DNA of 64,000 nucleotides, taken from a virus. Where the stretch lies: the IMG/VR virus record IMGVR_UViG_3300020469_000009. One strand, given 5' to 3'. Under the pieces are notes generated by a model. The model made no database searches. It was not told where the DNA came from and worked only from the letters and a program-made list of their open reading frames with translations. The position numbers were made by a program, and so were the translations under genes. This document shows, in pieces, positions 1-62,227 of this stretch. Every line of letters starts with the position of its first letter. Positions within the stretch are counted from its first letter, which is position 1.

Positions 1-660
1 ACTTGGCATATAGCCAGAGTTTAGGTTAGGGTTTGCAGTAACTGTGTCTACAAATGGGTCATTCACAGGTGTGATTGATCCAGTATCAGTTACGGGGTCA
101 GAGTCAGCAGTGCTAACACCATCATTTTTAGCTCTAGAGACAGCGAATGGATTTCCAGCCGCGTCCGTGTTGCTTCCTGCAGAGTGCGTATTAGGTTTCC
201 CTGTATTAAACGCAGTACCTGAGAAGTTAGAGAACGGTTCGTCGTACATGGCTTCAATACCAAGACCATTACCATCGCCACTAACACCTTCGTTAGTATT
301 GTTGTATCTTGCTCTTAGCGCGAATATAAGACCAGTTGGAGCGTTCATAGGTTGAACACCACATAAGTCAAATGCCATCATTTGTGGAACCGCACGTCTA
401 ACTAGAGATATAATGATAGGGTCATAACCAGCTCGACCAGTAGCGTTTACAGCACTATTCGTGTTTGCTCCACTCATAGCACCACCAAAGCTAGCACCAG
501 ATAAAGAAGCTTCTTCTAAGTTTTGCTCCTCTGCTAATGCCTTCTCTGTATTTTCGAGAACTTGTGCAAGAACAGCTTTCTTATCACGCTCATCTACTTT
601 TGGTAAATCTTCGTGTTCGATTACTGGAGCCCATTTCTCTGTAAGTACGTCGTATGACAT
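1..660 (-). CDS. gp23: Major capsid protein (T4 gp23-like), 5' part; runs off the window start
   Basis: Not in the ORF track. Manual translation from ATG at 660: MSYDVLTEKWAPVIEHEDLP...GYDPIIISLVRRAVPQMMAFDLCGVQPMNAPTGLIFALRARY, the hallmark gp23 segment. AGGAG SD upstream; follows gp22. Confidence 0.97.
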   Translation of the reverse strand, partial: MSYDVLTEKWAPVIEHEDLPKVDERDKKAVLAQVLENTEKALAEEQNLEEASLSGASFGGAMSGANTNSAVNATGRAGYDPIIISLVRRAVPQMMAFDLCGVQPMNAPTGLIFALRARYNNTNEGVSGDGNGLGIEAMYDEPFSNFSGTAFNTGKPNTHSAGSNTDAAGNPFAVSRAKNDGVSTADSDPVTDTGSITPVNDPFVDTVTANPNLNSGYMPS

Positions 661-727
661 GGTTTTTCTCCTAAGTTAATTTAAGTTAGATTATTAATTT
701 TCTTAAAAATCGTTGGTTTTTTCATTC

Positions 728-2722: not shown

Positions 2723-2757
2723 TTTGCTATAGCTCCAAATATTAATTTATTTATTTT

Positions 2758-3408
2758 TTATTGATTCTCTAAGAACCTTTTAAACAATTTTAGTTTTGTA
2801 TTATTTAATTCTCTACGACCGGCCTCAAGCAACTCTTTTCTAGCTTTTTCAAGGTCGATTCTTTGCCATACACCTGACTCATATATCCAATCCGCTTGCT
2901 CATAAACTCCCTCAACGAAAGCCTCTTGAGCAGATGGGTCAAATACAACATCAGCTGCTGTAGTTAAGACAAAATCTTCTTGCACTTCATTATATCCCTG
3001 ACGAGTCATTCTCAAAGAACCTAATCCTCGAGATGAAACACCAATTTTTACGCCATCGTCAAGTAGATTTTCAACGATTTTACCCATTGGAGTACTAAGG
3101 ACTTGTGCTTTTCCTTTATAGTAATAGCCATCTCTAGTTAACTCTTTCGTCATGATAGCCGCTCTTTCAGGGTTTACAACCGGCTCAGCCGGGTGGTTTA
3201 ATTCACCTAGTGCTCTTGACTGGGCGATATAATCTTTTTTATAAGCTTCAACAGCTTTATCCATTACGTGTTGAGGATAAACACGTCCATTTCTATTTTG
3301 TTTTTCTGCTTGTAAGAATGGACCTTGGATAAATTTCCTTTTTTGTTCTTTACCTTCTGTAAGAACTTCAAGGTCATTGAATGAAATATCTTCTTTGATT
3401 AATTTCAT
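2758..3408 (-). CDS. gp21: Prohead maturation protease (gp21)
   Basis: IQGPFLQAEKQNRNGRVYP, ALGELNHP, GVSSRGLGS and DVVFDPSA motifs. Confidence 0.97.
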   Translation of the reverse strand: MKLIKEDISFNDLEVLTEGKEQKRKFIQGPFLQAEKQNRNGRVYPQHVMDKAVEAYKKDYIAQSRALGELNHPAEPVVNPERAAIMTKELTRDGYYYKGKAQVLSTPMGKIVENLLDDGVKIGVSSRGLGSLRMTRQGYNEVQEDFVLTTAADVVFDPSAQEAFVEGVYEQADWIYESGVWQRIDLEKARKELLEAGRRELNNTKLKLFKRFLENQ

Positions 3409-3788
3409 TATTGTCCTCTGAATACGATAACGGCGTTTGGTGATGTACCACTAATGACTACATTGCCTTTTGCTTGTGCAATAGCAACTCCACCAGTCAT
3501 ATTAAAGTCCCATTTACCAGTAGCAAAAACTTTGCCGTCAATAGTAATTGCATTAGGACCCATATTAACTACAGATTCCATTTTAATTGGTCTCATATAA
3601 TGATTGATATTTTTTTCATCTGAGTCTGATGCTGGTGATTGGCCTGGACCGTAAATATTTTTTACTTGATAAGTAAATGTAAATGCATCTGAATCAAGTG
3701 TTGCAGCAGTGTCTATATGATAGACTACTCTGTTTCCTTGTGATGAACCTTGAATCCCTACGGATTTACTAACAACTGTATTTGCCAT
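3408..3788 (-). CDS. Hypothetical 126 aa protein, probably a virion/head protein (2 DSD motifs)
   Basis: Lies in the head operon, has its own late promoter (3793-3800), beta-rich composition. Confidence 0.6.
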   Translation of the reverse strand: MANTVVSKSVGIQGSSQGNRVVYHIDTAATLDSDAFTFTYQVKNIYGPGQSPASDSDEKNINHYMRPIKMESVVNMGPNAITIDGKVFATGKWDFNMTGGVAIAQAKGNVVISGTSPNAVIVFRGQ

Positions 3789-3803
3789 ATCTTATTTATT
3801 CCT

Positions 3804-4716: not shown

Positions 4717-4720
4717 AATT

Positions 4721-4728: not shown

Positions 4729-4733
4729 CTCCC

Positions 4734-5723
4734 TTAGCCTCTTATCATATCCATCTCCAATTGGAGATTTTGTTTTAATTGTTCTTCAAGCTCGTCTTTT
4801 TCACCTTTACCTTCATCATAGAGAGCTTGACCATTTAACTGAACACCACCTGGTAATTCAGTATTCTCATACTTTTTCAAGTTTGAGCCCCACTGCATCT
4901 TTAATAATGCAGATGAATACTTTTTAATCCATATATCATTGTAAACATCGCCATATATCTCAGGGTCAGTTGCTTCATAACATTCAATTAAGAAGAACTC
5001 TCCTTTTTTAGGACGTTTCCAATCAATATCTAAATAAAGTCTGTTTTTAGCTTTACTAAATCTAATTGCTGGTGATGTGTTTAATAAGAAATCTATATGT
5101 TCAACATACATTTTTTGTATGTAATATCCAGTAATTCCTGAACCAGCTGCATTACCATAGAATGCATCAAAGTTATTTAAGAAGTATTGATATTCATAAT
5201 TGTACATTCCAGATTGAGCAAAGCTATCTACTTTTGATACTCTAGATATTTGTATGATATTTTCTGGTACTCTTATTCCTACTTGTCCACCTTCAACTAA
5301 TGCATATGAATCTCTTAAGTACAATTGTTCTTTTGTGTAATTTTTTCTGAATACTTTATTATCTGAGTCTAATGCAAGGTCACTATCTGTTTTTACATAA
5401 ACATTAAAACCAGAATCTGAATCTGTATTTTTACTTGGATTGTGAAATACTCTTGCACCTTTTTTATATTCAGAATCATGATTGAAAACTGGTGCTGTAA
5501 TATCTTGATGACGTCTTTGATTTTCAGCTATTACTTTAGCATTTACTTCTAATACTCTATAAGTTCTTTCATTACCGTCATAGTGATACTCTTGATACAT
5601 TTTAATTGCATCATCGATACAGTCTTCTAATTGCACATCAGATACTTCTACGTTTACAACAGGTGCTCCACACCTACGTAGCATATAATCAGCTAAACTT
5701 TGTTTACTTTTCGGTAGTGCCAT
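4734..5723 (-). CDS. gp13: Neck protein (gp13-like) with a DSD-rich insertion
   Basis: YMLRRCGAPVVNVEVSDVQLEDCIDDAI...YHYDG; WIKKYSSAL.K.QWG.NL.KY...LPGGVQLNG. Confidence 0.93.
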   Translation of the reverse strand: MALPKSKQSLADYMLRRCGAPVVNVEVSDVQLEDCIDDAIKMYQEYHYDGNERTYRVLEVNAKVIAENQRRHQDITAPVFNHDSEYKKGARVFHNPSKNTDSDSGFNVYVKTDSDLALDSDNKVFRKNYTKEQLYLRDSYALVEGGQVGIRVPENIIQISRVSKVDSFAQSGMYNYEYQYFLNNFDAFYGNAAGSGITGYYIQKMYVEHIDFLLNTSPAIRFSKAKNRLYLDIDWKRPKKGEFFLIECYEATDPEIYGDVYNDIWIKKYSSALLKMQWGSNLKKYENTELPGGVQLNGQALYDEGKGEKDELEEQLKQNLQLEMDMIRG

Positions 5724-7875: not shown

Positions 7876-9669
7876 TTATGCTCCTGCTACCTCTTCAAAA
7901 CTAACTCCACTTCGTACTGCTACAAAGTTAAGTGTAATGAAGTTTATTGAACGATTCGGTTTGATGTAGATATCAGCCACGAATCTGTTTCCATCGATTA
8001 CTGCTGCCGTGTTGTTTGAAGCATCACAGACTACTTTAAAGTCCGTCATTCCTCGTCTTGACTTAACATCTGCTAAGAACGGCTCTACCGCGGCTACGAA
8101 ATTTGCTCTTGTGAAATCATCATTGAATTCAAACAATTGGAACTTAGCAGCTGTAGCAATTGCTTTTTCTAATACAATGAATAACCTTCTAACATTAATT
8201 CTATCAAATGCTGATGGTTTGCTTAATGCTGTTTTATCACCAAATAGTAATGTTCCCTGTCCTTTAAATGTAACGACTGGGTTAACTCTAGATTTGTATA
8301 ATTCATCTCTTTCAGCTTGTGAAGGATTATATTGTAATTTAACTACGTTTTTGTAGAATCCTCTGTTTAAACCAGCTGGTGAGAACCAAGCATCATTAGT
8401 AAATTCTGCTCTTGCTGTGACTCCTGCAGTATCTGGATTTAAAGGCATATTAAAGAACTCGTCATTATATCTATCATATTGACGTTTCCAACCTGAATCA
8501 AATACTCCGTATGAGTTTGAATTCCAATCTGAGAAATAATCAACTATTTTTCTAGCTGATGGACTGTTTACAGCCACTGTTTCAGATGGTGATATAAATG
8601 CCATTGCATCTTTTCTTGCTTTAGCACCAGCCATTACATATTTACCGACTGTAGTGCTATGTTCACCAGTTATTAATAAGTTTACATCTTCAGTTTCAGC
8701 ATCTAGTAATTTATCGTATGCTGCCATGATTGCTCCATCTGTGACAGCTGAACCATCATTACCATTCTTAAGCAGTGCTTTATAGATTGGTGTACCTGAA
8801 GTTTCAGATGGTAAATCTGAATCATATGTTCTTTTCAATGTAGCAAATGAACCTCTTGCAATAGAAGTAATAGTTGCACCTGGAGTATAATTAGCTCCAC
8901 CTGCGCCTGTTGCTGTAGTACCAAAGTTATTTACTAAGTATACCCATTGTGATTGATCGTTTACTTTATTTACAAAGAAGTTATTAGCATTGTTTCCATC
9001 TTTACTGTTTGCAGCTTTTGATAGGAAAGAATAAGTTTCTAATACTTCGTTTGCTGTGCCAGTAGGTCTATCATTTAATGTGTAAACCATTACGTGGCAT
9101 TCGTCTCTTAAATCTGAATCATAAGTTTTTGCCCAGTCAGATGTGCCTGGTACTGCATCAAAGTAATCTCTAAGTTTAACACTACCAAATACGTTTGTTG
9201 TATTATATGTATCTGAATCTAGTTGACTGTCTACAATTAGTACACCAATATCATTACCAAGACTACCTGGGAATCTTGCATATACGTTTGATGTTAAACC
9301 TGTTTTGTCTGATGAAAAATCATTTTCGTTTTGAATATTAGCATCTGAATCTACTGCATTATCAGAGTCACCCATTGATGCGTTTAAAGCTCCAGTTGCT
9401 GATGCACGAACTACTTTACAAGCATTTGCATAAGATAAGAAATTAGCTGCAGCATACCAATCATCTCTGACGTATCCTGCGTTAGTGCCTTTTCTCGGCT
9501 GTCCGTGTTTGTTTAATAAATCTTGCTCTGAAGATATTAATGTGACTTCATTTACAGGACCCCACTCGAAACGTCCTGCAAAACCACCAATCGACGTGGC
9601 GACGGCTGGTACAATATTTGTAAGGTCTGTTTCTTTGACCTGTACTCCTGGGCTTACTAGAAATGCCAT
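7876..9669 (-). CDS. gp18: Contractile tail sheath protein (gp18)
   Basis: MAFLVSPGVQVKETDLT, FEWGP, WFSPAGLNRG, FDRINVRRLF. Confidence 0.98.
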   Translation of the reverse strand: MAFLVSPGVQVKETDLTNIVPAVATSIGGFAGRFEWGPVNEVTLISSEQDLLNKHGQPRKGTNAGYVRDDWYAAANFLSYANACKVVRASATGALNASMGDSDNAVDSDANIQNENDFSSDKTGLTSNVYARFPGSLGNDIGVLIVDSQLDSDTYNTTNVFGSVKLRDYFDAVPGTSDWAKTYDSDLRDECHVMVYTLNDRPTGTANEVLETYSFLSKAANSKDGNNANNFFVNKVNDQSQWVYLVNNFGTTATGAGGANYTPGATITSIARGSFATLKRTYDSDLPSETSGTPIYKALLKNGNDGSAVTDGAIMAAYDKLLDAETEDVNLLITGEHSTTVGKYVMAGAKARKDAMAFISPSETVAVNSPSARKIVDYFSDWNSNSYGVFDSGWKRQYDRYNDEFFNMPLNPDTAGVTARAEFTNDAWFSPAGLNRGFYKNVVKLQYNPSQAERDELYKSRVNPVVTFKGQGTLLFGDKTALSKPSAFDRINVRRLFIVLEKAIATAAKFQLFEFNDDFTRANFVAAVEPFLADVKSRRGMTDFKVVCDASNNTAAVIDGNRFVADIYIKPNRSINFITLNFVAVRSGVSFEEVAGA

Positions 9670-12032: not shown

Positions 12033-12611
12033 ATGAATAAGGACGATTTTGTAATTGAATTACCTGGATTTGAATTTGATAAAGATAGATTGATAGACTT
12101 TATGAATTCAGATGTATTAGGTGATTGGAGAGAGCTAAACCATTTTCCTATGAAAGGGCTAAGTAATGAATTTAATCTTGGTGGTACTTTTCTTATGGAA
12201 GGTGGTGGTTATATGTTAAAAGAATTAGAGACAAAACATGTTGACCATGTACGTCATATATATGACCAAGTAAATCCAAATATATTATTGTGGGCAAAGA
12301 TGGCTTTAAAACCAGCAAACTTTTTAAAATATCCACCCTATATGAAATTAGCAAAACATAAAGATAGATTAAGAACAGGTAGTATTCACTTTCCATTAGG
12401 ACCAGGTGAACCTACTAATTTTTATGATGATGACTATAATTTAATATATCAACATGAACATAATGGTAATCCAGTTATTATGCACACTCACAAATATTTT
12501 CATGGTGTGGATAATAAAGATAAAGAAAGATATTGTTTTCAAATCACACTAAAACATGATTGGGAATTATTACATGAATGGAATGCGAATGGAACTCTCT
12601 ATACAAGTTGA
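12033..12611 (+). CDS. Putative Fe(II)/2-oxoglutarate-dependent oxygenase (cupin fold)
   Basis: HxD (KHKD), distal His (YFHGVDN) and downstream Arg (ERYCFQI). Confidence 0.7.
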   Translation: MNKDDFVIELPGFEFDKDRLIDFMNSDVLGDWRELNHFPMKGLSNEFNLGGTFLMEGGGYMLKELETKHVDHVRHIYDQVNPNILLWAKMALKPANFLKYPPYMKLAKHKDRLRTGSIHFPLGPGEPTNFYDDDYNLIYQHEHNGNPVIMHTHKYFHGVDNKDKERYCFQITLKHDWELLHEWNANGTLYTS

Positions 12612-13146
12612 ATCAGTAGACCCTACTCAAATGAACTCTATGCAAATGTTAGAGCTGTTTGAATTTTGTGCTGAAGCCTCTCAAGAAGATTTGCCACCAG
12701 CAAAAAATATGGAAGTAAAAGATTATGAAAATAAACCAGAAACTTTATTACATAAATTATGGATATCAAAAGAATATGATAGATTGTTTTTAGGTTGGCA
12801 AGGAGAAAGATTAGTTGGTATTTCAGCCTGTTATAGGTTAAATAAAAAGGTTATGATATGTGGTTGCCGTTCTTGGACAGTACCAGATATGAGAACTAAA
12901 TATGTTCATGGTAATCATATATTTCCAGAACAATTTAAGTATGCCAAAAATGAAGGATGTCATGCAGCTTGGTTTACTTTTAATGATTATAATGTATGGC
13001 TATACAAATTTTTAAAAAGAATAAGTGAAGGTAAAGCTACAGCATTTGGTATGAAAAATTCAGATACATATAAAGATATGACATTTGTACCTGGTCAGAT
13101 GTTAATAAAAAATACTACTCAAATGGTTGCTATAAAAAAATTATGA
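12556..13146 (+). CDS. GNAT-like acyl/acetyltransferase (true start probably ATG 12589)
   Basis: LFLGWQGERLVGISAC, WTVPDMR, AKNEGCHAAWFTFNDYN resemble GNAT motifs D/A/B. Confidence 0.55.
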   Translation: MIGNYYMNGMRMELSIQVESVDPTQMNSMQMLELFEFCAEASQEDLPPAKNMEVKDYENKPETLLHKLWISKEYDRLFLGWQGERLVGISACYRLNKKVMICGCRSWTVPDMRTKYVHGNHIFPEQFKYAKNEGCHAAWFTFNDYNVWLYKFLKRISEGKATAFGMKNSDTYKDMTFVPGQMLIKNTTQMVAIKKL

Positions 13147-13883
13147 TACCCGTATTTGCTCCATTAAAAGAACAATTAGATTTTAGTGAACACAAAATTG
13201 TGGAAGAACTATTAGCTACTCATATTGATAAACATAGTGTATTAGCTACAACTACATTTGAAGATGGACAATCTAGATGGAAAGGCGTAATGTCTTTTGA
13301 AGATGAAAAATTTGCTAAAACAAAAGACGTAATTCATTATGAAGATTCAAGTGATACACATCGGTCTATAATTAGAGGAATGGACACGTTTTGGATGACT
13401 AATCTTACTTATCATGATGACCGTTCAAAATATGAAAGTTGGGATTATCATAGAACAATACCATTGTGGGTAGAACATCAACATCCTTGGAAGTTCAGAG
13501 AAGATTTAAACATTCCTTATACTCAAGCTGTAATTCAAATGTTGCCATTTGAATATGTCACAACAGTAAGATGTATTTTACAGCAACCACCATCAATTGG
13601 TGTAATACACGCTGATTCTGGTAAGAAAATGAATCAACAATATTATGCTGATGGCAATGGTTCTATAACTTTAAATGTTTTAGCCGGTGGTGCTAATCTT
13701 TGGGTTGAAACAGATACTGGTGAAAAAATGATTGATGAATCTAAATGGAAGGTTTGGCATTTTGATGATTCAAATCCGCATTGTACCACAGAGACAAAAT
13801 CAAGAAGAATACAAATAAGAGTATTTGGAAAATTGAAATCAGACTATACAGAATTGCTAGACTTAGAACACGCCTTATTATAA
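13143..13883 (+). CDS. Asp/Asn beta-hydroxylase-like Fe(II)/2OG oxygenase
   Basis: VRCILQQPPSIGVIHAD (HxD), WHFDDSNPH (cf. FDDS..H of the AspH family), RRIQI. Confidence 0.7.
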   Translation: MIPVFAPLKEQLDFSEHKIVEELLATHIDKHSVLATTTFEDGQSRWKGVMSFEDEKFAKTKDVIHYEDSSDTHRSIIRGMDTFWMTNLTYHDDRSKYESWDYHRTIPLWVEHQHPWKFREDLNIPYTQAVIQMLPFEYVTTVRCILQQPPSIGVIHADSGKKMNQQYYADGNGSITLNVLAGGANLWVETDTGEKMIDESKWKVWHFDDSNPHCTTETKSRRIQIRVFGKLKSDYTELLDLEHALL

Positions 13884-13904
13884 GTGATTGATTTCTTATA
13901 ATAA

Positions 13905-13950
13905 AAAAGTGAAAAAAAACCTTTACAATGACCTTGTTTTATGATAAGAT
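13905..13950 (+). promoter_or_regulatory. Sigma70-type (early) promoter with UP-like A tract
   Basis: TTTACA (13922-13927), 17 bp spacer ending in TGn, TAAGAT (13945-13950). A tracts upstream; AGGAG SD at 13968-13972. Confidence 0.75.
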
Positions 13951-13980
13951 AACATCATAAATTAAACAGGAGCAAACTAT

Positions 13981-14187
13981 ATGTCTAACACTATCACTTC
14001 AGAATTCGCTTTTCACAACACACACCCAAAAGATTTATTCCCCATATTTGACAATTTCAATATAGTATTTTTTAAATTTTTGGATATTTCGGACCAAGGG
14101 GCTTTAGTTTTTCAACTAACTTTTTCATCCAAAATTGACTTTCAAAACTTCAATAATTTCCTCAAAGGGGACAATTCAAATTATTAA
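13981..14187 (+). CDS. Small Phe-rich hypothetical protein (68 aa), probably early-expressed
   Basis: Own sigma70 promoter and strong SD; stop overlaps that of the convergent gene. Confidence 0.65.
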   Translation: MSNTITSEFAFHNTHPKDLFPIFDNFNIVFFKFLDISDQGALVFQLTFSSKIDFQNFNNFLKGDNSNY

Positions 14188-15981: not shown

Positions 15982-15985
15982 AAAT

Positions 15986-16005
15986 TATTTATTCCGCTAT
16001 AAATA
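15986..16005. promoter_or_regulatory. Back-to-back late promoters: AATAAATA (-, desaturase) and TATAAATA (+, GNAT-to-hydroxylase operon)
   Basis: Located at 15986-15993 (-) and 15998-16005 (+). Confidence 0.8.
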
Positions 16006-16015
16006 TATTTTTATT

Positions 16016-19988: not shown

Positions 19989-19995
19989 GGAGTGT

Positions 19996-32862: not shown

Positions 32863-33037
32863 TTGCTATCTTCTCCATCAATTTTAAAATTTTATCCATT
32901 TTTGTTTCTAAACTTGTTATTCTTGTTTCAGTTTGTTTATCTTTTAGAGTTTTAGCTTTATATTCATCATAAGCAGCTCTATTAGTATTTAAAATAGCTC
33001 CACTCTTGGGGTCTCTTCTTAAATGTTTTTTATCCAT
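32855..33037 (-). CDS. Small conserved hypothetical protein (60 aa)
   Basis: LRRDPKSGAILNTN plus a coiled coil; resembles the small gene that follows VrlC in T4-like phages. Confidence 0.65.
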   Translation of the reverse strand: MDKKHLRRDPKSGAILNTNRAAYDEYKAKTLKDKQTETRITSLETKMDKILKLMEKIANG

Positions 33038-47359: not shown

Positions 47360-49666
47360 ATGGCTTATAACGATTCCGAGATAAGACCTTTTCAGACCGA
47401 CGTAACTGGCTTACGTTCTGAATGGGCAAAAGTCTCTAAAATATATGACAAGCGCGGCATTACCGCAATGGATGAAAGACGTCTCTCTGACGACTTAAAA
47501 GCCTATGTCAAATACATAGCCGCCAATATGGACTCCGATACTATCAATGGTATTGATCAAAGAGTAGATTCAGATTCACTTGTACAATTTTTCGGTAAGC
47601 CAAACACTTGGAGTCGTTCAAGTGCAATCGAAAATAATACTAACATAGGAGATACTGAATGGGCTAAGGTAAGAAATTTCTTAGATGCTATTCCAGTAGC
47701 TTATGATGATGGAGCTGGTAATCAATATACTGGTGCACCTCATGCAGTATTAACTGCAGATTCTGATGGGTCAGCTAAATGGGTAAGTATATTAACATTA
47801 TTAAAAGGTTATCTATTACATTTTTTAAAGTTTGACCGTGTTGAACTTAGAAGAATGCAAGGTGAACTAAATGTAGTAAAAAATGATAGTGAAGGTTTTA
47901 AATCAGTTGCTCAAAACTTACCAGCACATCTAGATTCTGATGGACCCACAGCTACAAACTTACTAGAATCTTTATTAAATTATTTTGACGATACAGCTTT
48001 AGGTTTAGGCTTTAATTCTAGTGTCACTACTAAATTCTTAGTACCATTCAACAGAGATATATCTTATGGTGCTATAAGTGTAGATTCAGATACAAATAAC
48101 CTTGTAGATTCTGATACAAATAGAAATAGATTATATTACATTAGAAGAAAATTAGCTGATACAGTAATTACAGCTATTATGCTAGATTCTGACTATACAG
48201 ATGCTGGTCACACTAGACAATATGGTCAAAACTTGCTTGCTACTAGATTATTTACTGTAAAAGATAAGATTACTAGAAGAAATGCTCAAATGCATGCTAC
48301 AAACTTTAACTTATTTTACGAGTACTTACACTTTGACTGGATTGCAAGAGATTCAGAATTCTCTGGTAATGCTGGTGCATCAGGTACTATTGATGCAAAC
48401 TTTGGTAAAGGTGTACTTGTAGATTCAGATACACAGGGTTATTCTTTAAATTATGATAAACATGTCAATCCAGGTCTAATTAATACTTTAGAAGATTCTG
48501 ATTATGTTTCATTGCTTGTTAGAAGAAATCAGTTCTTCTGGGGATTCATGGGTCTAAGACTTGGAGCTACAGATTCTGATAGATTAATGTTATTAACTGA
48601 TTCTGATTACAAAACCAGAGCTACAAGCGGTGGTAAAAAGAAACATACAAATTATTATAATTATCATCCAGGATTTTTAACACGTTTTAAACAAATTAAT
48701 AAGAGCTTTACTGAAAGAGTAATGCTTGGTTATCTTAATCGAGATGTAGATTCAGATAATAAATTGCATAGGTCTAAAATATGGCAGCCATTAAGTGAAT
48801 ATGTCAGAAGTAATGATAGTGATTTAGAAAAATTTAGAAGAAGTATACTAACTTCTATGAATGATTCTGATAGAATTACAATAGCAAATGATATTGTTAT
48901 GAGAGCTATTGATTCAGATTCAGATGATGGCCTTGCAATAAAAAATAGATTAACTGATATAGTTATCAATCAACTTATAAATCAAGACTCAGAAAACAGT
49001 TTAATACAAAGTGTTGCTAGAAAAGAAATTCTTAAAATGGATTCAGATTCTGAGTTAGTTTCAAGAACATTTACACACTTACTTAATAGAATATCTGAAA
49101 GTGCAGTAGCATCTGACTCAGATTCTATGGGCAGAGATTCTGACCTAAGAGTAAGATTTGACAATTTAATTTTAGATAGAGTACAAAGGCTAGATTCAGA
49201 TGATTTAAACAGTGGTACAAATTTAAAATCAACATTACGTAAAAACTATATACAAACATTTGATTCAGATTCTGATTTACAAAAACGTACTGCTATAGGT
49301 GCTATCCAAGCAATGAGAGATGATAGTGATATCCTTAAAACTCAACTTAGTACATTACGAAGTAAATTAAAAACAATTACACAAGAACATATTGTACATG
49401 ATTCAGAAGGCAGTTATTCATCATTCCAATTTACTATGCCTAAAGGAAATCATCCACCTACAAATACTGATGTAGCTGTATTCTTAAATGGTGTATTACA
49501 AATGAATTCAACATCACAAAATAAACTTGGTACAGCAGCCGTAAATCATACTGTAGATATATCATCATCAGCTGTATCAGCCGCTGGAGTGATTACACTT
49601 AACTTTGCTGTTAACGTTCCAATTTCAGATGTCATAACAGTAAAATATACAACTTATCAGAAATAG
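47360..49666 (+). CDS. Unknown virion-type protein, densest DS[DE] content (~29 motifs in 768 aa)
   Basis: Late promoter at 47322-47329; C-terminal VAVFLNGVLQ fibre-type beta module; helical DSD-punctuated middle region. Confidence 0.65.
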   Translation: MAYNDSEIRPFQTDVTGLRSEWAKVSKIYDKRGITAMDERRLSDDLKAYVKYIAANMDSDTINGIDQRVDSDSLVQFFGKPNTWSRSSAIENNTNIGDTEWAKVRNFLDAIPVAYDDGAGNQYTGAPHAVLTADSDGSAKWVSILTLLKGYLLHFLKFDRVELRRMQGELNVVKNDSEGFKSVAQNLPAHLDSDGPTATNLLESLLNYFDDTALGLGFNSSVTTKFLVPFNRDISYGAISVDSDTNNLVDSDTNRNRLYYIRRKLADTVITAIMLDSDYTDAGHTRQYGQNLLATRLFTVKDKITRRNAQMHATNFNLFYEYLHFDWIARDSEFSGNAGASGTIDANFGKGVLVDSDTQGYSLNYDKHVNPGLINTLEDSDYVSLLVRRNQFFWGFMGLRLGATDSDRLMLLTDSDYKTRATSGGKKKHTNYYNYHPGFLTRFKQINKSFTERVMLGYLNRDVDSDNKLHRSKIWQPLSEYVRSNDSDLEKFRRSILTSMNDSDRITIANDIVMRAIDSDSDDGLAIKNRLTDIVINQLINQDSENSLIQSVARKEILKMDSDSELVSRTFTHLLNRISESAVASDSDSMGRDSDLRVRFDNLILDRVQRLDSDDLNSGTNLKSTLRKNYIQTFDSDSDLQKRTAIGAIQAMRDDSDILKTQLSTLRSKLKTITQEHIVHDSEGSYSSFQFTMPKGNHPPTNTDVAVFLNGVLQMNSTSQNKLGTAAVNHTVDISSSAVSAAGVITLNFAVNVPISDVITVKYTTYQK

Positions 49667-49678: not shown

Positions 49679-51790
49679 ATGGGAACTAAGACAAGAGATT
49701 TATCAAAACTAGGAGCTGGTTTTGTTGTAGATGGAAATAAATCACGTATTGATAGTGATAATACAATTGAAACATTTACCACATTATCTGTAAAAAGAGA
49801 TAATTCTAGTTATAACTCTGGAAAAGACAGTGATATATTTGTTGTAAATCCTGACCAAGCAAATCCTACAATTGAAACCAGACACTCTACAAAAATTAAA
49901 GATAAACTTGTATTTGATAAAGTACAAAAAGATGCTAATAGAAATGTAGCAGTAGATACAGCAGCAACAGTCAATTTACGTGCAGGACAACACTTTGATA
50001 GTGATTTAATAGATGCAGTTGTAGATGCAGTAATTGCAAAAGGTAGAAATGATTTAGATAAAGTAAATAGTAATTATCATCCTAAATTAGCACAATTACA
50101 AGCTGAGATGGCTACAAGGCTTATGAGCGATATGAATGCTGATAAAGGACCTACAGTTGGACAGTATTTAAGATGGACAGGTAATAAGTATGAACCACAA
50201 GACCCTGATGCAACTGGTAATTTTACTATTGACTTTCAATCAGCACAGGTTTCACCACAAGCTATTACAGATTCAGATACTAAAATAGGTTTTTCAAAAG
50301 TAATTTCAAATGCAAATGCTTTAGTATTTGTAAATGGTCACTTACAGCCAGTGGATTCAGATGCATTTGGTGATGGTCAATCTCCAACTGGTGCTGGTAC
50401 ATCTACAAGAGATTCAGATTCCGACAAGTATGCAATTATTGATTATAAGATACTTGCAAATGTCACAACAAAAGATGTAGACCAAGTAGTATCAGGTCCA
50501 GCAGATGCGATTAAGTTTTATGGTAGTTTAAAAGCAAATGATGAAGTATCAGTTATATCACCTATTGATGAAACTATAGCTCACTTTTATAAGAACTTTA
50601 GATTTGCCGACTCAGACTTTGTAGTTCTGCGTAAATCAAGAAGAGCTGATTTAAGTGCTAATGGTACACACCAAACATTTAGAATGATTGATTCAGATAT
50701 TTACAGTGATTCTGATTTAATTGTTTCAAGAGTTGGTGGTAATCCTCTTATCTTCTTAAATGGTATTAACTTATCTCAAAAACAAGGAGACTTTTATTTC
50801 TGGGATTCAGATTCTGACCAAGTAAATACATATAAAACTTCTAGAGTAATAGCATTTGATTCAGACCAATTCTTAAAAGATTCAGATGAATTATCAGCTG
50901 TATGGATAAGAAACGTATCAAACCAATTAGGTGGAAACAGATTACCTTCCGAAGCATTCCAAACATTAGAACATACATTTACTGTAAATGATTCAGACCA
51001 CCCAGGATTTGCTACAGGTTTAGTAGATTGTTCACCAGTATTACAAACATCAAATGACCCATTCAATGTACTAGTATTTTTAAATGGTGTATTATTATCA
51101 CAAACACCTGTCTTAGAATATCAAGTAAATGGAAATGATATATTGTTCCCATCTAGACTTAATGTTAATGACTTTGTAGCTATATACTCATTTAGTGGTC
51201 CAACAGCTGGAGTAAGTACTTTAGGTCAATTATCAAATGTTGATGAGGCTGTAGATGGTCAACAACCAAGCATAGGTGAAGCACTAGTATATTCTGGTGG
51301 TCAATGGACACATCAATTCTCTGACCAAATTAAAGAAACACCACTAACATCAGCTTGGATGAGAGTTTCATTTGATTCAGATAATGGTCCTAATCCTAAT
51401 AAGATTATTGATAGAGCTACTTATGGATTTGATTCAGATCAACTAAAATATTCAAGACATTCAGAAGGTGTTTATTTCTTCTTATTAGATTCAGAAGTAG
51501 TACCAGTAAATGATACAAATGGATTCTATATGTCCATGGCAGTGTCAACTTGTGCACCACAGGGTCAACCTATATTTTCATCAATAGATGCTCAAGGCGC
51601 AAATGCAGTAGCACCTGGTCCAGGAGCCGATTCAGAAACTGGTAAAACAATAGATGTCTTTGGTGGTAAACCATTAATTGCAAATCCAAACAATAGAGCA
51701 ATCAGAGTACGTACGTGGGATGCTAGTTCTAATCCAATTGACCCAATACAAATGAATGTACAAGTCTGGTTTAAGCGACAGTCTGGATAA
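49679..51790 (+). CDS. Tail/head fibre-like protein with repeated VF(V/L)NG modules (~19 DS[DE])
   Basis: LVFVNG, LIFLNG and LVFLNG modules; GQYLRWTGNKY and GEALVYSGGQW fibre motifs. Confidence 0.7.
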   Translation: MGTKTRDLSKLGAGFVVDGNKSRIDSDNTIETFTTLSVKRDNSSYNSGKDSDIFVVNPDQANPTIETRHSTKIKDKLVFDKVQKDANRNVAVDTAATVNLRAGQHFDSDLIDAVVDAVIAKGRNDLDKVNSNYHPKLAQLQAEMATRLMSDMNADKGPTVGQYLRWTGNKYEPQDPDATGNFTIDFQSAQVSPQAITDSDTKIGFSKVISNANALVFVNGHLQPVDSDAFGDGQSPTGAGTSTRDSDSDKYAIIDYKILANVTTKDVDQVVSGPADAIKFYGSLKANDEVSVISPIDETIAHFYKNFRFADSDFVVLRKSRRADLSANGTHQTFRMIDSDIYSDSDLIVSRVGGNPLIFLNGINLSQKQGDFYFWDSDSDQVNTYKTSRVIAFDSDQFLKDSDELSAVWIRNVSNQLGGNRLPSEAFQTLEHTFTVNDSDHPGFATGLVDCSPVLQTSNDPFNVLVFLNGVLLSQTPVLEYQVNGNDILFPSRLNVNDFVAIYSFSGPTAGVSTLGQLSNVDEAVDGQQPSIGEALVYSGGQWTHQFSDQIKETPLTSAWMRVSFDSDNGPNPNKIIDRATYGFDSDQLKYSRHSEGVYFFLLDSEVVPVNDTNGFYMSMAVSTCAPQGQPIFSSIDAQGANAVAPGPGADSETGKTIDVFGGKPLIANPNNRAIRVRTWDASSNPIDPIQMNVQVWFKRQSG

Positions 51791-52663: not shown

Positions 52664-53803
52664 ATGTCAGATAAAATTTCAAAAACTAGAAAAATCGCAA
52701 ATGCGGTAAACCCAAACGGTCCTGGTGGAAAGTTCTTTTTATCAACTGACTCTGATGCAATACTTTTCGGTAATAAAAATAATACATCATTAAAACTAGG
52801 TACAATTAATGTAGGTACTGATGGTGACCGTACACATTTTACAAGAACATCAAGAAATCTATTATTCCCACTAAATAACAGACCAGATTCAGACCACTTT
52901 AACAGATTTTCATCTACTAATCTACCATCTGCTAGACCATTTCAAGATGCAATCATTGGTAGTGACTCAGATAATTCACTTACAACTTTTAAAGGAAACT
53001 TCTTTCTTGGAGAAGATATAGGTGGTTATTTGTTAGATGACTTTACAAACCGCCATAGAAAATATCCTTTAGATTCTGATATGATTTTTGGACATGGAAC
53101 AGGTTCACAAGCAATTGCTTATCTTGAAGGTAGAAAAATAAGTAGGTTTAAAACTCGTGGTGGTATCATGTTTGGTAGAAAACATGGTGGTCAAACTATG
53201 AATATTGCAAGAGTATCAGGTGAAAATACACCATTGCAATTCGGATATCCTAAAACTGCTGGTAATGTACATGATTCTGAAAACACTGTATTCACAAGTT
53301 TTGGTACTTTAGACTTACAAGGTAGAACTTTATTCAAATCAACTGATGTGAATTTAGGATTTTTAGGACATGATTCAGATTCAGATAATGGTTTTGCATT
53401 TGAATATAATAGTTCAGGAAATACAGGTTCTTCTAAAACTATGAGTGCTCAAAATGAACAATCAATGAGCTCATTTATACAAGGAAAACAAGTAGGACAT
53501 AAATCATATGTAAATATGACAGGTGCTACATTAACAGGAACTGGCACATTTAAGTTTGCACCTATACATAATTCAAGTGGAACAATAGTAAGAAATTCAT
53601 CATTAAGTGTATCTGATATTAGAGATTCAGATGGCACACTAACAGCAAACCATTCTGGTAGTGGTCATAATATAATGACTGTAGATAGTGATGGATTCAC
53701 TATAGGCTCCACAAACGTTTCTATACCTAGTAAGTATAACTTAACTATAATAAATGCAGCTGGTTCAACAGTTGCTACAATAAAGTTTATAGACCCAAGT
53801 TAG
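52664..53803 (+). CDS. Fibre-like virion protein (~9 DS[DE])
   Basis: SKTR N-terminal motif; C-terminal LTIINAAGSTV. Confidence 0.6.
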   Translation: MSDKISKTRKIANAVNPNGPGGKFFLSTDSDAILFGNKNNTSLKLGTINVGTDGDRTHFTRTSRNLLFPLNNRPDSDHFNRFSSTNLPSARPFQDAIIGSDSDNSLTTFKGNFFLGEDIGGYLLDDFTNRHRKYPLDSDMIFGHGTGSQAIAYLEGRKISRFKTRGGIMFGRKHGGQTMNIARVSGENTPLQFGYPKTAGNVHDSENTVFTSFGTLDLQGRTLFKSTDVNLGFLGHDSDSDNGFAFEYNSSGNTGSSKTMSAQNEQSMSSFIQGKQVGHKSYVNMTGATLTGTGTFKFAPIHNSSGTIVRNSSLSVSDIRDSDGTLTANHSGSGHNIMTVDSDGFTIGSTNVSIPSKYNLTIINAAGSTVATIKFIDPS

Positions 53804-60392: not shown

Positions 60393-60393
60393 A

Positions 60394-61581
60394 CTATACT
60401 TCCTCTTTTAAACTTTCTTTAGCACAGTCCATTACCATTTTAACTTCATCACCTGCATAAAAGTCTCTTTTGGCTGTGACATAATATTTACCTGTCCACA
60501 TATTATCTTTTTCACCCATTCTAGAACCAGCAGGGTCTGGATTTGGTATATCTAATTGTACAACTTGTCCAATATCAACTTCAGGATTACCTTTAACTGT
60601 AATTTGTACTAATTGATTATAACCTGTGACTGATGACCTTTTTAAACCAGACAAGTCACTTTGATATTGTGAACTTGCAGAAAAATATATTCTGCCCATT
60701 CCATAATCTTGATTATAATATTGTGGAAATGGATTTAAGTATTTTGCTTTATCAAATTCTTTATGATAATTCCAATTAAGAACAGTTTGAGTTTTTTCTT
60801 TTAAACTAACATCATATTCTCTGGCAACTAAATAACCTTCTCTTAAAGCTTTTGCCATATCATAAGAATGACCAAACTTTAAATCAGATATAGCTGATAA
60901 ATCTTGTTCCACATTAGGTATACCATCAGTAGCATTATTTGCTCTATACTTAAAAGTGAATGGTGGATTATCTTTATAAAAATCTAAAGCTTTTTCAATA
61001 GGCATAAAGTTATATAGACCTTTACTGTCTTGAAAGAACCGAAATCTTATATCATCAGTTGTAGAAACTGCATTTGATGCTAACCAGCCTATAGCTCTTG
61101 TAGGACTCCAATTGGGAATAATAACTGTTGAACTACCTTTTGAAGCTTCAAATACACCAAATTTTTCGTCTGTATATTTTTGAAATATTTTTAAAGCAAT
61201 TTCATTAAATGGACCAGTAAATGATTGAGAAAACTTTTGATGCAAACCTTGGAAAGCAAATTCAGATATACACTCTAAAATATACATCCTACTAGTTTCT
61301 AAATCAGATAAACCTTTTATTTTAGTAATTCTTAAAGTGTAATCTCTTATTTGACCCATAATATCTATTTGTACTTTAAATAGGTCACCACCTTGTACAG
61401 GGAAACCTGATATTATGTTTCTACCATCAGTAATTAAAAACTCACCCATAATAGTTCTATCAACTATGGATGAAAAGATATTCATTTCTGATACCATCAT
61501 AGTGATATCAGCTGCTTCTCCACCTCTAATTATTTTTGCGCTTTTTAGTTCGTAAGCACCAGTTTGTTTTCCGCTAGCCAT
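60394..61581 (-). CDS. Baseplate hub protein (gp27-like)
   Basis: Position between gp53 and gp5; IIPNWSP..AIGWL, VKGNP.VDIGQVV, GKYYVT. Confidence 0.7.
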   Translation of the reverse strand: MASGKQTGAYELKSAKIIRGGEAADITMMVSEMNIFSSIVDRTIMGEFLITDGRNIISGFPVQGGDLFKVQIDIMGQIRDYTLRITKIKGLSDLETSRMYILECISEFAFQGLHQKFSQSFTGPFNEIALKIFQKYTDEKFGVFEASKGSSTVIIPNWSPTRAIGWLASNAVSTTDDIRFRFFQDSKGLYNFMPIEKALDFYKDNPPFTFKYRANNATDGIPNVEQDLSAISDLKFGHSYDMAKALREGYLVAREYDVSLKEKTQTVLNWNYHKEFDKAKYLNPFPQYYNQDYGMGRIYFSASSQYQSDLSGLKRSSVTGYNQLVQITVKGNPEVDIGQVVQLDIPNPDPAGSRMGEKDNMWTGKYYVTAKRDFYAGDEVKMVMDCAKESLKEEV

Positions 61582-62227
61582 TTATATACTCTTGTATTTC
61601 GTCAATCAATTTGTCTACTACTTTTGATGTCGGAATAATAATATTTCTTTTTGTTTCATTTAACTCTTCTTCATGTGTTTGAATTGACACAGGAGCTACT
61701 GTAGGATATGTAATTCCTATACCATTTGCATCTTTTCCTGTTGTATTATTTACTATTGAATCATAAGAATATTCTTTTTTATTTGCATCTATAAAATGTC
61801 TAGGTTTAGTCACAACACTTGTTCCTGTCACAGAGCTTTTAAAATTATTACCTGTTGTACCTACAAACTGTATGAATTCCATTACTTGTACTTTTGTAAG
61901 AGTTTGTGAAACACCATCACTGTCAGTTTGTACTTTATATTTTTGAAATAAAAATTCATCTTGTTGCTGTTGGTCTCTTGGCCAATCATTATAGATACTC
62001 ATTATATTATTAGCAAGCATGATAGCCCAGTGTTTACCGGTATCAGAATAATAATCATAAGCTAAATTTTCTGGTGTATCTCCGTCTTTGATAGAATAAA
62101 ATTCAAAGTTATCAGAATTTGTAGTAATCTCATCTCTCATTTTAGGACGTATAGACATATCAGTCATAACTCTTTTTACACCGTCAGAAAATTCATATAC
62201 TATTCTATTGTATTGTTTGAAGTACAT
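61574..62227 (-). CDS. gp53: Baseplate wedge subunit (gp53)
   Basis: MYFK, YSIKDGDTPENLAYDYY...HWAIMLANN...DWP, EEELNETKRNI. Confidence 0.9.
   Translation of the reverse strand: MYFKQYNRIVYEFSDGVKRVMTDMSIRPKMRDEITTNSDNFEFYSIKDGDTPENLAYDYYSDTGKHWAIMLANNIMSIYNDWPRDQQQQDEFLFQKYKVQTDSDGVSQTLTKVQVMEFIQFVGTTGNNFKSSVTGTSVVTKPRHFIDANKKEYSYDSIVNNTTGKDANGIGITYPTVAPVSIQTHEEELNETKRNIIIPTSKVVDKLIDEIQEYING

What the first reader, a model, noticed from the sequence alone, without database searches (positions are those of the whole stretch)
97..62227. Virion-wide DS[DE] tripeptide (~180 copies) that behaves like a modification sequon on surface-exposed structural proteins
SEEN (manual counts, approximate): gp7 ~34, 47360 protein ~29, gp37-like fibre ~23, 49679 fibre ~19, gp8, gp9 and VrlC ~10 each, 52664 ~9, gp14 ~8, gp15, gp18 and 32020 5 each, gp13 4, and one in the available part of gp23 (97-105). 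I found none in portal gp20, tube gp19, gp6, gp25, the gp27-like hub, gp48/54, gp17, gp21 or the island enzymes. A rough random expectation (about 0.08 x 0.08 x 0.13 per position) gives fewer than 1 per 700 aa, so several proteins are enriched more than 20-fold. The motif occurs in unrelated folds with variable flanks. It uses both TCN and AGT Ser codons, so it is not a DNA repeat. KNOWN: Ser in staphylococcal SD repeats is glycosylated by SdgA/SdgB; Bacteroidetes O-glycosylation uses a D-(S/T)-x sequon; some actinobacteriophages glycosylate virion proteins with their own GTs. INFERENCE: DS[DE] is the recognition site for a post-translational coat over the whole virion exterior. An alternative is a direct Ca/Fe-binding or charge motif.
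Basis: partly seen in the sequence, partly recalled or inferred. Interest (0 to 1): 0.95.

Follow-up and report, generated by a model that had tools for sequence, protein, structure and literature searches.

The report
Asp-Ser-Asp tag on phage tail proteins
The outward-facing tail, neck, baseplate and fibre proteins (not the head) of this uncultured marine T4-like phage and a broad clade of relatives carry Asp-Ser-Asp/Glu about 20 times more often than chance, at conserved loop positions. It looks like an undescribed tag, most plausibly a serine-modification site, though no chemistry has been shown.

Summary
The window has 181 DS[DE] against 16.4 expected. DSD (145 vs 10.2, z=42) is the top outlier of all tripeptides. 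Fifteen ORFs hold 175 sites (9.0 expected).

It is not virion-wide. The full major capsid protein has 1 site. Portal, tube, scaffold, inner baseplate, terminase and all island enzymes have none or one.

Selection acts on the protein, because Ser codons match the background. Sites are conserved far above background (28/29 kept at 64% identity). In an AlphaFold sheath model they lie in loops of the outer domains.

The trait spans at least four divergent uncultured lineages (GC 0.31-0.41). It is absent from the closest cultured relatives (Pelagibacter phage HTVC008M, Methylophilales phage Melnitz) and from 72 other T4-like sheaths.

Best reading (about 0.45): a sequon for a phage-made serine modification, probably O-glycosylation. 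Trait-positive phages carry GT8-like transferases and sugar-pathway genes. However, the same transferase families also occur in trait-negative phages, so no writer is identified. Main rival: an unmodified cation-binding or charge motif.

This scan noted DSD in one other genome and analogous tail tags (DGY, [S/T]GS) in other clades.

The parts
40734..45077 (-). gp7-like baseplate wedge protein, 1447 aa, 34 DS[DE] (1.6 expected)
   Evidence: PF23786; 28 of 33 alignable sites kept in the 71%-identical homolog
47360..49666 (+). 768-aa fibre-like protein with no family, 29 sites (1.0 expected); densest bearer (3.8 per 100 aa)
   Evidence: 28/29 sites kept at 64% identity vs 27% expected
26443..28614 (-). 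723-aa fibre-like protein, 23 sites (1.0 expected)
49679..51790 (+). 703-aa fibre-like protein, 19 sites (0.9 expected)
39322..40734 (-). gp8-like baseplate protein, 470 aa, 10 sites; 5 sit at the same alignment columns in the distant lineage D
28622..30034 (-). gp9/10-like protein, 470 aa, 10 sites, all after the conserved N-terminal domain (residues 4-52)
   Evidence: (PF07880)
33037..39297 (-). VrlC/DUF4815 giant protein, 2086 aa, 10 sites, confined to residues 148-587 and 1717-1934
52664..53803 (+). 379-aa protein, 9 sites (0.28 expected)
30916..32010 (-). gp14 neck protein, 364 aa, 8 sites, all outside the conserved core (residues 53-158)
   Evidence: PF11649
30050..30916 (-). gp15 tail-sheath stabiliser, 288 aa, 5 sites, all in the C-terminal extension (224-274); two of these sites are shared across lineages A-C, one of them also with D
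   Evidence: (PF16724)
32020..32862 (-). 280-aa protein, 5 sites
7876..9669 (-). gp18 tail sheath, 597 aa, 5 sites at residues 101, 107, 151, 184 and 283, all in the variable outer domains
4734..5723 (-). gp13 neck protein, 329 aa, 4 sites
   Evidence: PF26809
53817..54395 (+). 192-aa protein, 2 sites (0.07 expected)
3408..3788 (-). 126-aa protein, 2 sites (0.04 expected)
22008..24749 (+). Candidate modification cassette, not proven. It holds three paralogous GT-A (GT8-like) glycosyltransferases (22008-22688, 23323-24105, 24081-24749) and a Rossmann, methyltransferase-like protein (22664-23326). None carries a DS[DE] site.
   Evidence: conserved in lineages A, A', B (partly) and C
12033..21800 (.). 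Rest of the enzyme island inside the morphogenesis module: FA_desaturase-like (15172-15981, minus strand), SDR (19257-19988), PF05118 Asp/Asn beta-hydroxylase-like (20666-21430) and about ten ORFs with no family. None carries a DS[DE] site.
1..660 (-). N-terminal 220 aa of major capsid protein gp23 with 1 site (nt 97-105). The full protein has 1 site in 496 aa, so this serves as a negative control.

Best explanation
DS[DE] is a short linear recognition tag placed on solvent-exposed loops of the proteins that form the outside of the tail: sheath outer domains, neck, outer baseplate and fibres. The most likely mechanism is that a phage-encoded cytoplasmic enzyme recognises Asp-Ser-(Asp/Glu) and modifies the serine hydroxyl. 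The most plausible chemistry is O-glycosylation that the phage's GT8-like transferases start or extend using phage-made nucleotide sugars. That would coat the tail exterior but not the head. Shown here: the enrichment, its protein-level nature, positional conservation, loop and peripheral location, tail-only distribution, clade distribution, and the GT-A fold of the neighbouring transferases. Inferred: that the serine is modified at all, that the modification is a glycan, and which enzyme does it.
For: (1) The pattern is strict and asymmetric. DSD is 145 vs 10.2 and DSE 36 vs 6.3, while DT[DE], ES[DE], NS[DE], DG[DE] and DA[DE] are at or below expectation. A plain DxD metal site would not demand Ser.
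(2) Sites are mostly single and dispersed with near-random spacing, so they behave as independent sites.
(3) Purifying selection acts per site. Examples are 28/29 kept at 64% identity and 10/10 at 79%. A subset is conserved across lineages with about 55% sheath identity while other sites turn over.
(4) Location. All sheath sites of 120 homologs fall in residues 92-308, the variable outer domains. In the AlphaFold model the 5 sites are in loops or at a helix N-end, and 3 are in low-confidence loops. The gp14, gp15 and gp9-like sites lie outside the conserved cores.
(5) Interior proteins and enzymes have 0-1 sites.
(6) The trait is clade-specific. Whole records give G001 188 vs 31, G005 184 vs 25 and G004 99 vs 16, against HTVC008M 20 vs 26, Melnitz 24 vs 27 and G009C28 10 vs 23.
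(7) Trait-positive lineages A, A', B and C all carry GT8-like transferases plus a methyltransferase-like gene beside the tail genes. They also carry sugar-tailoring genes: DegT aminotransferase, carbamoyltransferase, a Gmd-like N-terminus and a KdsA-like gene. The two complete trait-negative cultured genomes lack both families.
(8) The 22008 protein models as a GT-A fold (pLDDT 85.7). Its best Foldseek matches are the UGGT catalytic domain, GlyE (5gvw; to my knowledge, not checked here, it acts on the serine-rich repeat protein PsrP), LARGE1 and LgtC. It has an invariant DxD.
(9) Precedent: serines of DSD motifs are O-GlcNAcylated by SdgB (PMC3794999).
(10) In lineage A the rest of the proteome is depleted in DS[DE] (7 vs 21.4). 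Orthologs give 1-2 where trait-negative orthologs have 4-8.
Against: No chemistry can be seen in sequence. The GT8-like and methyltransferase-like families are not specific to the trait. L533 has the cassette inside its tail module next to gp8-like and VrlC-like genes and shows no enrichment (6 vs 4.5). G009C28 has distant copies and none. About 70 of 80 loci with a 24081-family gene, and almost all of the 80 with a 22008-family gene (162 vs 174), are unenriched. GT8-type enzymes usually extend glycans, and no initiating protein O-glycosyltransferase has been identified. Lineage D carries the trait with no enzyme island in its tail module. The depletion outside virion proteins is not seen in lineage C or inside the window. 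Baselines vary from 0.43 to 0.9, so that signature is weak. Such sugar gene sets in marine phages are, by my own knowledge, usually ascribed to host-surface or DNA modification. The absence of the tag from the head is not predicted by a simple shielding function.
Confidence: 0.45

Rival explanations
1. The motif works unmodified. The two carboxylates and the serine hydroxyl on surface loops bind divalent or trivalent cations from seawater (Ca2+, Mg2+, Fe3+), or simply give the tail exterior a dense, hydrated negative surface. Possible uses are stabilising loops, controlling fibre deployment, reducing sticking to non-host particles, or bridging to host surface polymers.
For: The acidic D-x-D/E geometry places both carboxylates on one side. 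The sites are on loops and surfaces. In gp15 one conserved DSD column is D-D or DGD in the trait-negative HTVC008M and Melnitz, which suggests a pre-existing acidic loop. The restriction to the tail fits a function in adsorption or tail mechanics better than a general shield. No specific writer enzyme could be tied to the trait. Lineage D has no enzyme island in its tail module.
Against: Known Ca-binding DxD-type motifs (my own knowledge, not checked here) do not require Ser in the middle. Here DG[DE], DA[DE], DT[DE] and DN-type variants are not enriched. Sites are single and dispersed rather than clustered into multi-ligand sites. The closest relatives living in the same seawater have none.
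Confidence: 0.3
2. The tag is read by an enzyme, but the chemistry is not glycosylation. Options are serine phosphorylation by an acid-directed kinase, beta-hydroxylation of the aspartate by the PF05118-like or other 2OG oxygenases, or a radical-SAM modification.
For: A PF05118 Asp/Asn beta-hydroxylase-like gene (20666-21430) is present in lineages A, A' and C and absent from the three trait-negative genomes. The same holds for a radical SAM gene, TauD and a FA-desaturase-like di-iron protein. Lineage C's island holds eight radical SAM proteins, three with SPASM domains, a class that by my own knowledge includes peptide- and protein-modifying maturases. Lineage B also has one.
Against: The PF05118 hit is marginal (25.7 bits against a cutoff of 22.6). 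2OG oxygenase clusters also sit in the tail module of trait-negative HTVC008M. No kinase was seen. The radical SAM sets differ between lineages. None of these families has a known D-S-D/E specificity (my own knowledge).
Confidence: 0.12
3. There is no reader. DS[DE] is just this clade's preferred loop or helix-cap sequence, fixed by history, drift or composition, with no specific function.
For: Asp and Ser have high turn and N-cap propensity (my own knowledge). One sheath site sits exactly at a helix N-terminus.
Against: A 19-fold excess of one ordered tripeptide over all equivalent turn sequences is hard to explain this way. So are the near-perfect site conservation at 64-71% overall identity, the persistence across lineages with GC 0.31-0.41, and the gain of new sites at new positions in each lineage. 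Together these require selection for the motif itself.
Confidence: 0.05

Closest known systems
SdgB/SdgA O-GlcNAcylation of staphylococcal Ser-Asp repeat proteins (PMC3794999)
   Same: The acceptor is a serine flanked by aspartates. The paper itself speaks of 'DSD motifs', nearly all of which are modified. It is a cytoplasmic, sequence-directed O-glycosylation.
   Different: There the serines lie in long tandem SD repeats of a disordered stalk. Here 181 mostly isolated tripeptides sit in folded, unrelated proteins, with only 9 DSDSD. By my own knowledge SdgB is a GT-B (GT4) enzyme, whereas the transferases beside the tail genes here are GT-A, GT8-like. No SdgB homolog was found.
General O-glycosylation of Bacteroidetes, motif D-(S/T)-(A/I/L/V/M/T) (PMC8550257)
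   Same: It is a three-residue sequon beginning Asp-Ser, used proteome-wide on many unrelated proteins.
   Different: The third residue there is aliphatic or Thr, and Thr is accepted as acceptor. Here the third residue is strictly acidic and Thr is not used. By my own knowledge that system acts on exported proteins outside the cytoplasm, whereas T4-type tails assemble in the cytoplasm.
Virion glycosylation of mycobacteriophages by phage-encoded glycosyltransferases (Freeman et al. 2023, Cell Host Microbe)
   Same: Phage glycosyltransferase genes lie next to structural genes and structural proteins are O-glycosylated. I saw this paper only as reference 61 of PMC12801897. It is not held, so its content is from my own knowledge.
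   Different: As I recall, those glycans are on capsid and tail-tube subunits, without a defined tripeptide sequon. Here the capsid and tube lack the motif and the outer tail carries it.
Virus-encoded glycosylation of chlorovirus capsid protein and mimivirus fibrils (my own knowledge, not checked here)
   Same: Those viruses make their own nucleotide sugars (GDP-mannose dehydratase, sugar aminotransferases) and transferases to decorate virion surface structures. Trait-positive phages here carry a Gmd-like N-terminus, DegT, KdsA-like and several GT genes.
   Different: They are eukaryotic giant viruses with different acceptor rules, and no DS[DE] tag is known there.
His-x-His iron sites of the T4 gp37 fibre tip and the 'Ferrojan horse' idea (my own knowledge, not checked here)
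   Same: A short i/i+2 motif repeated along tail fibres binds metal ions, and the feature is tail-specific.
   Different: The HxH sites are buried on the trimer axis of one fibre domain. DS[DE] occurs on loops of many non-fibrous proteins and requires Ser in the middle.
Other tail-exterior tripeptide tags noted by this scan (DGY in huge phages; [S/T]-G-S in marine Flavobacteria phages; DSD in another genome)
   Same: Each is an ordered tripeptide 10-20 times enriched on outward-facing tail, baseplate and fibre proteins, absent from inner proteins, and lying beside phage sugar-transferase genes (AI notes that I did not check).
   Different: The tripeptides and phage clades differ. DGY and [S/T]GS are not enriched in this window.

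Membership tests
SdgB-type Ser-Asp-repeat O-glycosylation | Acceptor serines lie in long tandem (SD)n repeats | tested here: not met
   Sites are dispersed with near-random spacing; only 9 overlapping DSDSD among 181 sites
SdgB-type Ser-Asp-repeat O-glycosylation | A GT-B (GT4) transferase homologous to SdgB | tested here: not met
   The island transferases are GT-A, GT8/GT24-like by fold and have no PDB sequence relatives. A 324-aa protein with weak GT-B-type hits exists elsewhere in the relative G001 but was not characterised.
SdgB-type Ser-Asp-repeat O-glycosylation | The serine carries GlcNAc | not testable with these tools
   Needs mass spectrometry
Bacteroidetes general O-glycosylation sequon | Motif D-(S/T)-(A/I/L/V/M/T) | tested here: not met
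   The third residue is D (80%) or E (20%). DSL is 1 vs 4.8, DSA 4 vs 4.8, DST 2 vs 6.1 and DT[DE] 5 vs 8.3 in the enriched proteins.
Phage virion glycosylation (mycobacteriophage type) | Phage glycosyltransferase genes adjacent to structural genes | tested here: met
   Three GT8-like genes at 22008-24749 lie between the terminase/sheath block and the fibre genes. The arrangement is syntenic in lineages A, A', B and C.
Phage virion glycosylation (mycobacteriophage type) | Capsid and tail-tube subunits are the glycosylated proteins | tested here: not met
   gp23 has 1 site in 496 aa and the tube has 0. This concerns motif presence only.
Phage virion glycosylation (mycobacteriophage type) | Glycan demonstrably attached to virion proteins | not testable with these tools
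   No cultured member of the trait-bearing clade was found
GT-A fold, GT8-clan retaining glycosyltransferase (22008-22688 and paralogs) | GT-A Rossmann-like fold with a DxD motif | tested here: met
   AlphaFold model pLDDT 85.7, pTM 0.87. Foldseek E about 1e-8 and TM 0.6-0.69 to the UGGT catalytic domain, GlyE, LARGE1, LgtC and glycogenin. D85 and D87 are invariant in 39 homologs. The Pfam score itself is below threshold; only PHROG 1962 'glycosyltransferase' matches, at 2e-9.
T4-like myophage near Kyanoviridae / pelagimyophages | T4-type morphogenesis module | tested here: met
   Pfam hits to gp5, gp6, gp25, gp53, gp13, gp14, gp15, gp18, gp23, portal, S77 protease, scaffold and terminase. The portal is 51% identical to cyanomyophages. 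The sheath is 47-49% identical to HTVC008M, Mosig and Melnitz.

The most novel reading that the evidence does not exclude
The DS[DE] loops, possibly after beta-hydroxylation of the aspartate by the PF05118-like oxygenase that is shared by trait-positive lineages, act as siderophore-like chelating sites. The whole tail exterior would then carry Fe(III) or Ca(II). This would be a sequence-encoded version of the 'Ferrojan horse' idea, in which marine phage tails ferry or mimic chelated iron to reach host receptors. More generally, different phage clades may each use their own tripeptide code for a tail-only surface chemistry.
Probability: 0.1. Interest if true: 0.9.

Novelty: new variant of a known kind. 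Interest (0 to 1): 0.8.

Why it matters
If the tag is a modification sequon, it would be the first defined short sequon for a phage virion protein modification. It would also be restricted to the tail exterior of a large, abundant and wholly uncultured clade of marine T4-like phages (the window's sheath protein cluster alone was seen on 18 contigs). Serine acceptors could then be predicted site by site from sequence. That makes the chemistry directly testable by mass spectrometry on environmental virus concentrates or on recombinant proteins. It would also give a function to enzyme islands of the kind seen here inside phage morphogenesis modules. If instead the motif binds metal ions, it bears on how much trace metal marine phage particles sequester. 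Either way it is a strong, clean and previously unreported sequence signal.

Tried and rejected
- DNA-level explanation: rejected. Nine-mers are diverse, Ser codons follow the background, and AGT codons do not fit a GANTC-type site.
- Shared repeated domain among bearers: rejected (all-vs-all BLAST).
- Pfam, PHROG and NCBIfam scans of the island left about ten ORFs unnamed. Profiles of the GT-like and MT-like families found no solved relatives by sequence.
- Writer by phylogenetic profiling. The 22008 family occurs in at least 517 viral loci, almost all unenriched. The 24081 family has 176 relatives; only those at 57% identity or more that have tail genes in range, plus L535/536, are enriched. 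L533 is a clean counter-example. About ten further genes are shared by lineages A and C and absent from three negatives, which is too many and rests on too few genomes to single one out.
- Depletion of the motif in non-virion proteins as a sequon signature: seen in G001 but not in G004 or within the window. Baselines vary, so it is kept only as weak support.
These were useful only as negative controls.
- Search for an alternative enriched tripeptide in L533: nothing with meaningful counts.
- Literature: no paper links a DSD motif to phage virions.
- No whole genome is held for the window, so genome-wide statistics rest on the 152-kb relative G001.
Full report
**Observation.** I translated the 59 long ORFs of the window and counted DS[DE] against each protein's own composition and against 500 shuffles. 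There are 181 sites where 16.4 are expected.

An unbiased ranking of all tripeptides puts DSD first (145 vs 10.2, z=42) and DSE second (36 vs 6.3). The serine codons in the motif (TCA 103, TCT 40, AGT 29) follow the background usage. The flanks carry almost no information, and the bearers share no repeated domain. The signal is therefore selected at the protein level. Fifteen ORFs (9,222 aa) hold 175 sites against 9.0 expected, and the other 44 ORFs hold 6 against 7.4.

**What carries it and what does not.** Pfam names the bearers as sheath gp18, neck gp13 and gp14, gp15, gp7-like, gp9/10-like and the DUF4815/VrlC protein. Several fibre-like proteins also have no family.

Portal, tube, gp6, gp25, the gp48-like cap, terminase, prohead protease and all island enzymes have none. 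The gp5-like spike and gp53 have one each. The window holds only the first 220 residues of gp23. The full protein, read from the window's own 163-kb Tara scaffold, has 1 site in 496 residues. The capsid proteins of two other trait-bearing lineages have none. So the feature belongs to the tail exterior, not the whole virion.

Within proteins, the sites avoid conserved cores:
- All five sheath sites lie between the domain III N-terminal segment and the subtilisin-like core.
- All gp15 sites are in a C-terminal extension.
- All gp14 sites are outside the neck-protein domain.
- Across 120 sheath homologs, every DS[DE] falls at reference residues 92-308.
- In an AlphaFold model built on 60 homologs (pLDDT 78), the five sites sit in loops or at a helix N-terminus, three of them in low-confidence loops.

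**Conservation.** In relatives from IMG/VR, the sites are kept far more often than overall identity predicts. Examples are 28 of 29 in the 47360 protein at 64% identity (27% expected), 10 of 10 in gp8-like at 79%, and 28 of 33 in gp7-like at 71%. Between deeply diverged lineages a subset is still at the same alignment column: five of ten in gp8-like, and two gp15 sites across three or four lineages. Other sites are lineage-specific. Asp and Glu interchange at the third place, and the first two places do not vary. Spacing between sites is close to random, with a small excess of overlapping DSDSD (9 vs 3.9).

**Distribution.** The phage is an uncultured marine T4-like myophage. Its portal is 51% identical to cyanomyophages. 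Its sheath is 47-49% identical to Pelagibacter phages HTVC008M and Mosig and to Methylophilales phage Melnitz.

The trait is present in:
- the window's own lineage (G001 188 vs 31; G005 184 vs 25);
- an intermediate lineage (L527);
- lineage B (L048, L070), found by a triple-DSD DNA pattern scan;
- lineage C (G004 99 vs 16; G007 100 vs 11);
- lineage D, with GC 0.41 (L321/L500: 46 sites in a 1415-aa protein, 15 in a fibre, 13 in the sheath).

Of the 120 closest sheath clusters (50-100% identity), 68 have three or more sites (413 vs 60 expected). Of 72 T4-like sheaths from GTDB genome contigs, none has three (36 vs 29.5). The complete genomes of HTVC008M (20 vs 26.3) and Melnitz (24 vs 26.6), the 106-kb contig G009C28 (10 vs 23) and the distant gp7 relatives have no enriched protein. 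No cultured phage in the collection carries the trait or a close copy of the 24081 gene. A literature search found no report of it.

**Surroundings.** Between the terminase/sheath block and the fibre genes lies a 12.7-kb island on the opposite strand. It encodes:
- a FA-desaturase-like membrane protein;
- an SDR;
- a marginal PF05118 Asp/Asn beta-hydroxylase-like protein;
- about ten ORFs with no family;
- at its fibre-proximal end, three paralogous transferases (22008, 23323, 24081) interleaved with a Rossmann, methyltransferase-like protein (22664).

The 22008 protein models confidently as a GT-A fold. Its best matches are the UGGT catalytic domain, GlyE, LARGE1, LgtC and glycogenin, and it has an invariant DxD.

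The island is syntenic in G001 and G005 and in the intermediate lineage. Lineage B has its own island with a GT8 gene, copies of the 22008 and 22664 families, a carbamoyltransferase, a DegT sugar aminotransferase, a radical SAM protein and nitroreductase-like proteins. Lineage C has the transferase and methyltransferase-like genes plus eight radical SAM proteins, three with SPASM domains.

Elsewhere, lineages A and C share a cluster of unnamed proteins and a weak GT-B-like protein. They also share a TauD oxygenase and a KdsA/DAHP-synthase-like gene. In G001 this cluster also holds a protein with a Gmd-like N-terminus and a DegT gene. None of these genes is found in the three trait-negative genomes. 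HTVC008M and Melnitz lack both the GT8-like and methyltransferase-like families.

**Limits of the association.** The transferase families are widespread in marine viral contigs that show no DS[DE] excess. The loci with a 22008-family gene outside the top-ranked ones give 162 vs 174. About 70 of 80 loci with a 24081-family gene are flat. L533 has the cassette inside its tail module, next to gp8-like and VrlC-like genes, with 6 vs 4.5. G009C28 also has distant copies. Lineage D's tail module has no island at all. The cassette is thus at best necessary, not sufficient, and no writer is identified.

A second possible signature, avoidance of the motif in non-virion proteins, is seen in G001. There 162 ORFs hold 7 vs 21.4, and orthologs hold 0-2 where the trait-negative orthologs have 4-8. 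It is not seen in G004 or inside the window, and baselines vary between 0.43 and 0.9. I treat it as weak.

**Interpretation.** The following points all indicate that the motif itself is under selection and that the serine is its functional centre:
- a strict requirement for Asp then Ser;
- tolerance of Asp or Glu at the third place only;
- single dispersed sites;
- placement on loops of peripheral domains;
- site-by-site conservation together with lineage-specific gains.

That is how an enzyme sequon behaves. The one experimentally known case of serines in DSD being modified is O-GlcNAcylation by SdgB (PMC3794999). Together with the transferase and sugar-pathway genes of the trait-bearing phages, I rank sequon-directed serine modification, probably O-glycosylation, first at about 0.45.

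A direct cation-binding or charge role of the unmodified motif comes second at about 0.3. It explains the tail-only distribution and the lack of a specific writer. It does not explain the demand for serine or the D/E asymmetry. Other chemistries on the same tag (phosphate, Asp hydroxylation, radical-SAM chemistry) get about 0.12. A functionless loop preference gets about 0.05. The remainder is left for explanations not considered here.

**Comparison with known systems.** The motif resembles the SdgB target but is not a tandem repeat, and the neighbouring enzymes are of another fold. It resembles the Bacteroidetes D-(S/T)-(A/I/L/V/M/T) sequon (PMC8550257) in its first two residues only. Gene arrangement recalls mycobacteriophage virion glycosylation (Freeman et al. 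2023), but the bearer proteins differ. I saw that paper only as a reference, and it is not held.

Notes of this scan report DSD in one other genome and analogous tail-exterior tags (DGY, [S/T]GS) in other phage clades. I did not check them. If they hold, clade-specific tripeptide tags on tail exteriors may be a general phenomenon.

**Verdict.** The mechanism is unproven, and the decisive experiments are ordinary mass spectrometry and co-expression assays.

Noticed in passing
window 57538-58808 (- strand): A HAD-type acid-phosphatase-like protein (57538-58143, 91% identical in G001/G005, more conserved than its neighbours) and a PAP2-family membrane phosphatase (58140-58808) sit inside the baseplate gene block. 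Neither was found in HTVC008M, Melnitz or G009C28.
   Followed up: partly
window 15172-15981 (- strand): A FA_desaturase-family (di-iron, membrane) protein lies inside the morphogenesis-module island. It is conserved in lineages A, A' and C and absent from the three trait-negative genomes.
   Followed up: partly
L482:5426-17294 (G004 = IMGVR_UViG_3300028829_004377): Lineage C's island holds eight radical SAM proteins in a row, three with an N-terminal SPASM-type domain, plus a weak QueC-like hit, directly beside DS[DE]-rich fibre genes.
   Followed up: partly
L030:105-11267 and L033:1215-1988 (G001 = IMGVR_UViG_3300025137_005412): A sugar and acyl cluster: two unnamed proteins, a weak GT-B-like protein, a protein with a Gmd-like N-terminus, a DegT aminotransferase, further GT-like ORFs, an SDR, a ketosynthase-like ORF and TauD. 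A KdsA/DAHP-synthase-like gene lies elsewhere. Parts are 39-60% identical in lineage C. It suggests an amino-deoxy sugar pathway, possibly perosamine-type.
   Followed up: partly
L492-L493 (G007 = IMGVR_UViG_3300021957_006387), 236-21748: A row of eleven ORFs (244-1116 aa, eight of them 553-734 aa) upstream of the sheath gene, each with 4-17 DS[DE] sites. It may be an expanded fibre or decoration family; paralogy was not tested.
   Followed up: no
G004 ORFs of 400 aa or more (L482-L485): In lineage C the tag is often preceded by Arg-Leu (RLD 20 vs 2.4, LDS 25 vs 4.7). The preferred context may therefore be longer there, or paralogous repeats may inflate the count.
   Followed up: no
Pelagibacter phage HTVC008M, ORFs of 400 aa or more (L501-L508): The tripeptides FEG, SFE and VFE are each about 6-fold enriched (17-20 vs about 3), hinting at an [S/V]FEG motif or repeated domains in its large structural proteins.
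   Followed up: no
L031:3130-3702 (G001 23130-23702) vs window 1-660: A 191-aa ORF far from the capsid gene shares a 36-residue stretch (64% identity) with the N-terminal part of gp23. An earlier first-reader note also saw this.
   Followed up: no
window 728-2722 (- strand): The 664-aa scaffold protein (20% Glu, 13% Asp) contains a duplicated segment P[IV]ETPMKDDSDPKK at residues about 121-134 and 356-369. Its two DS[DE] are within compositional expectation.
   Followed up: no
L031:16231-16878 and L032:1968-2930 (G001 36231-36878, 41968-42930): Two ORFs outside the structural module (216 and 321 aa, no Pfam) carry 5 DS[DE] each. They are probably further virion proteins encoded elsewhere in the genome.
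   Followed up: partly
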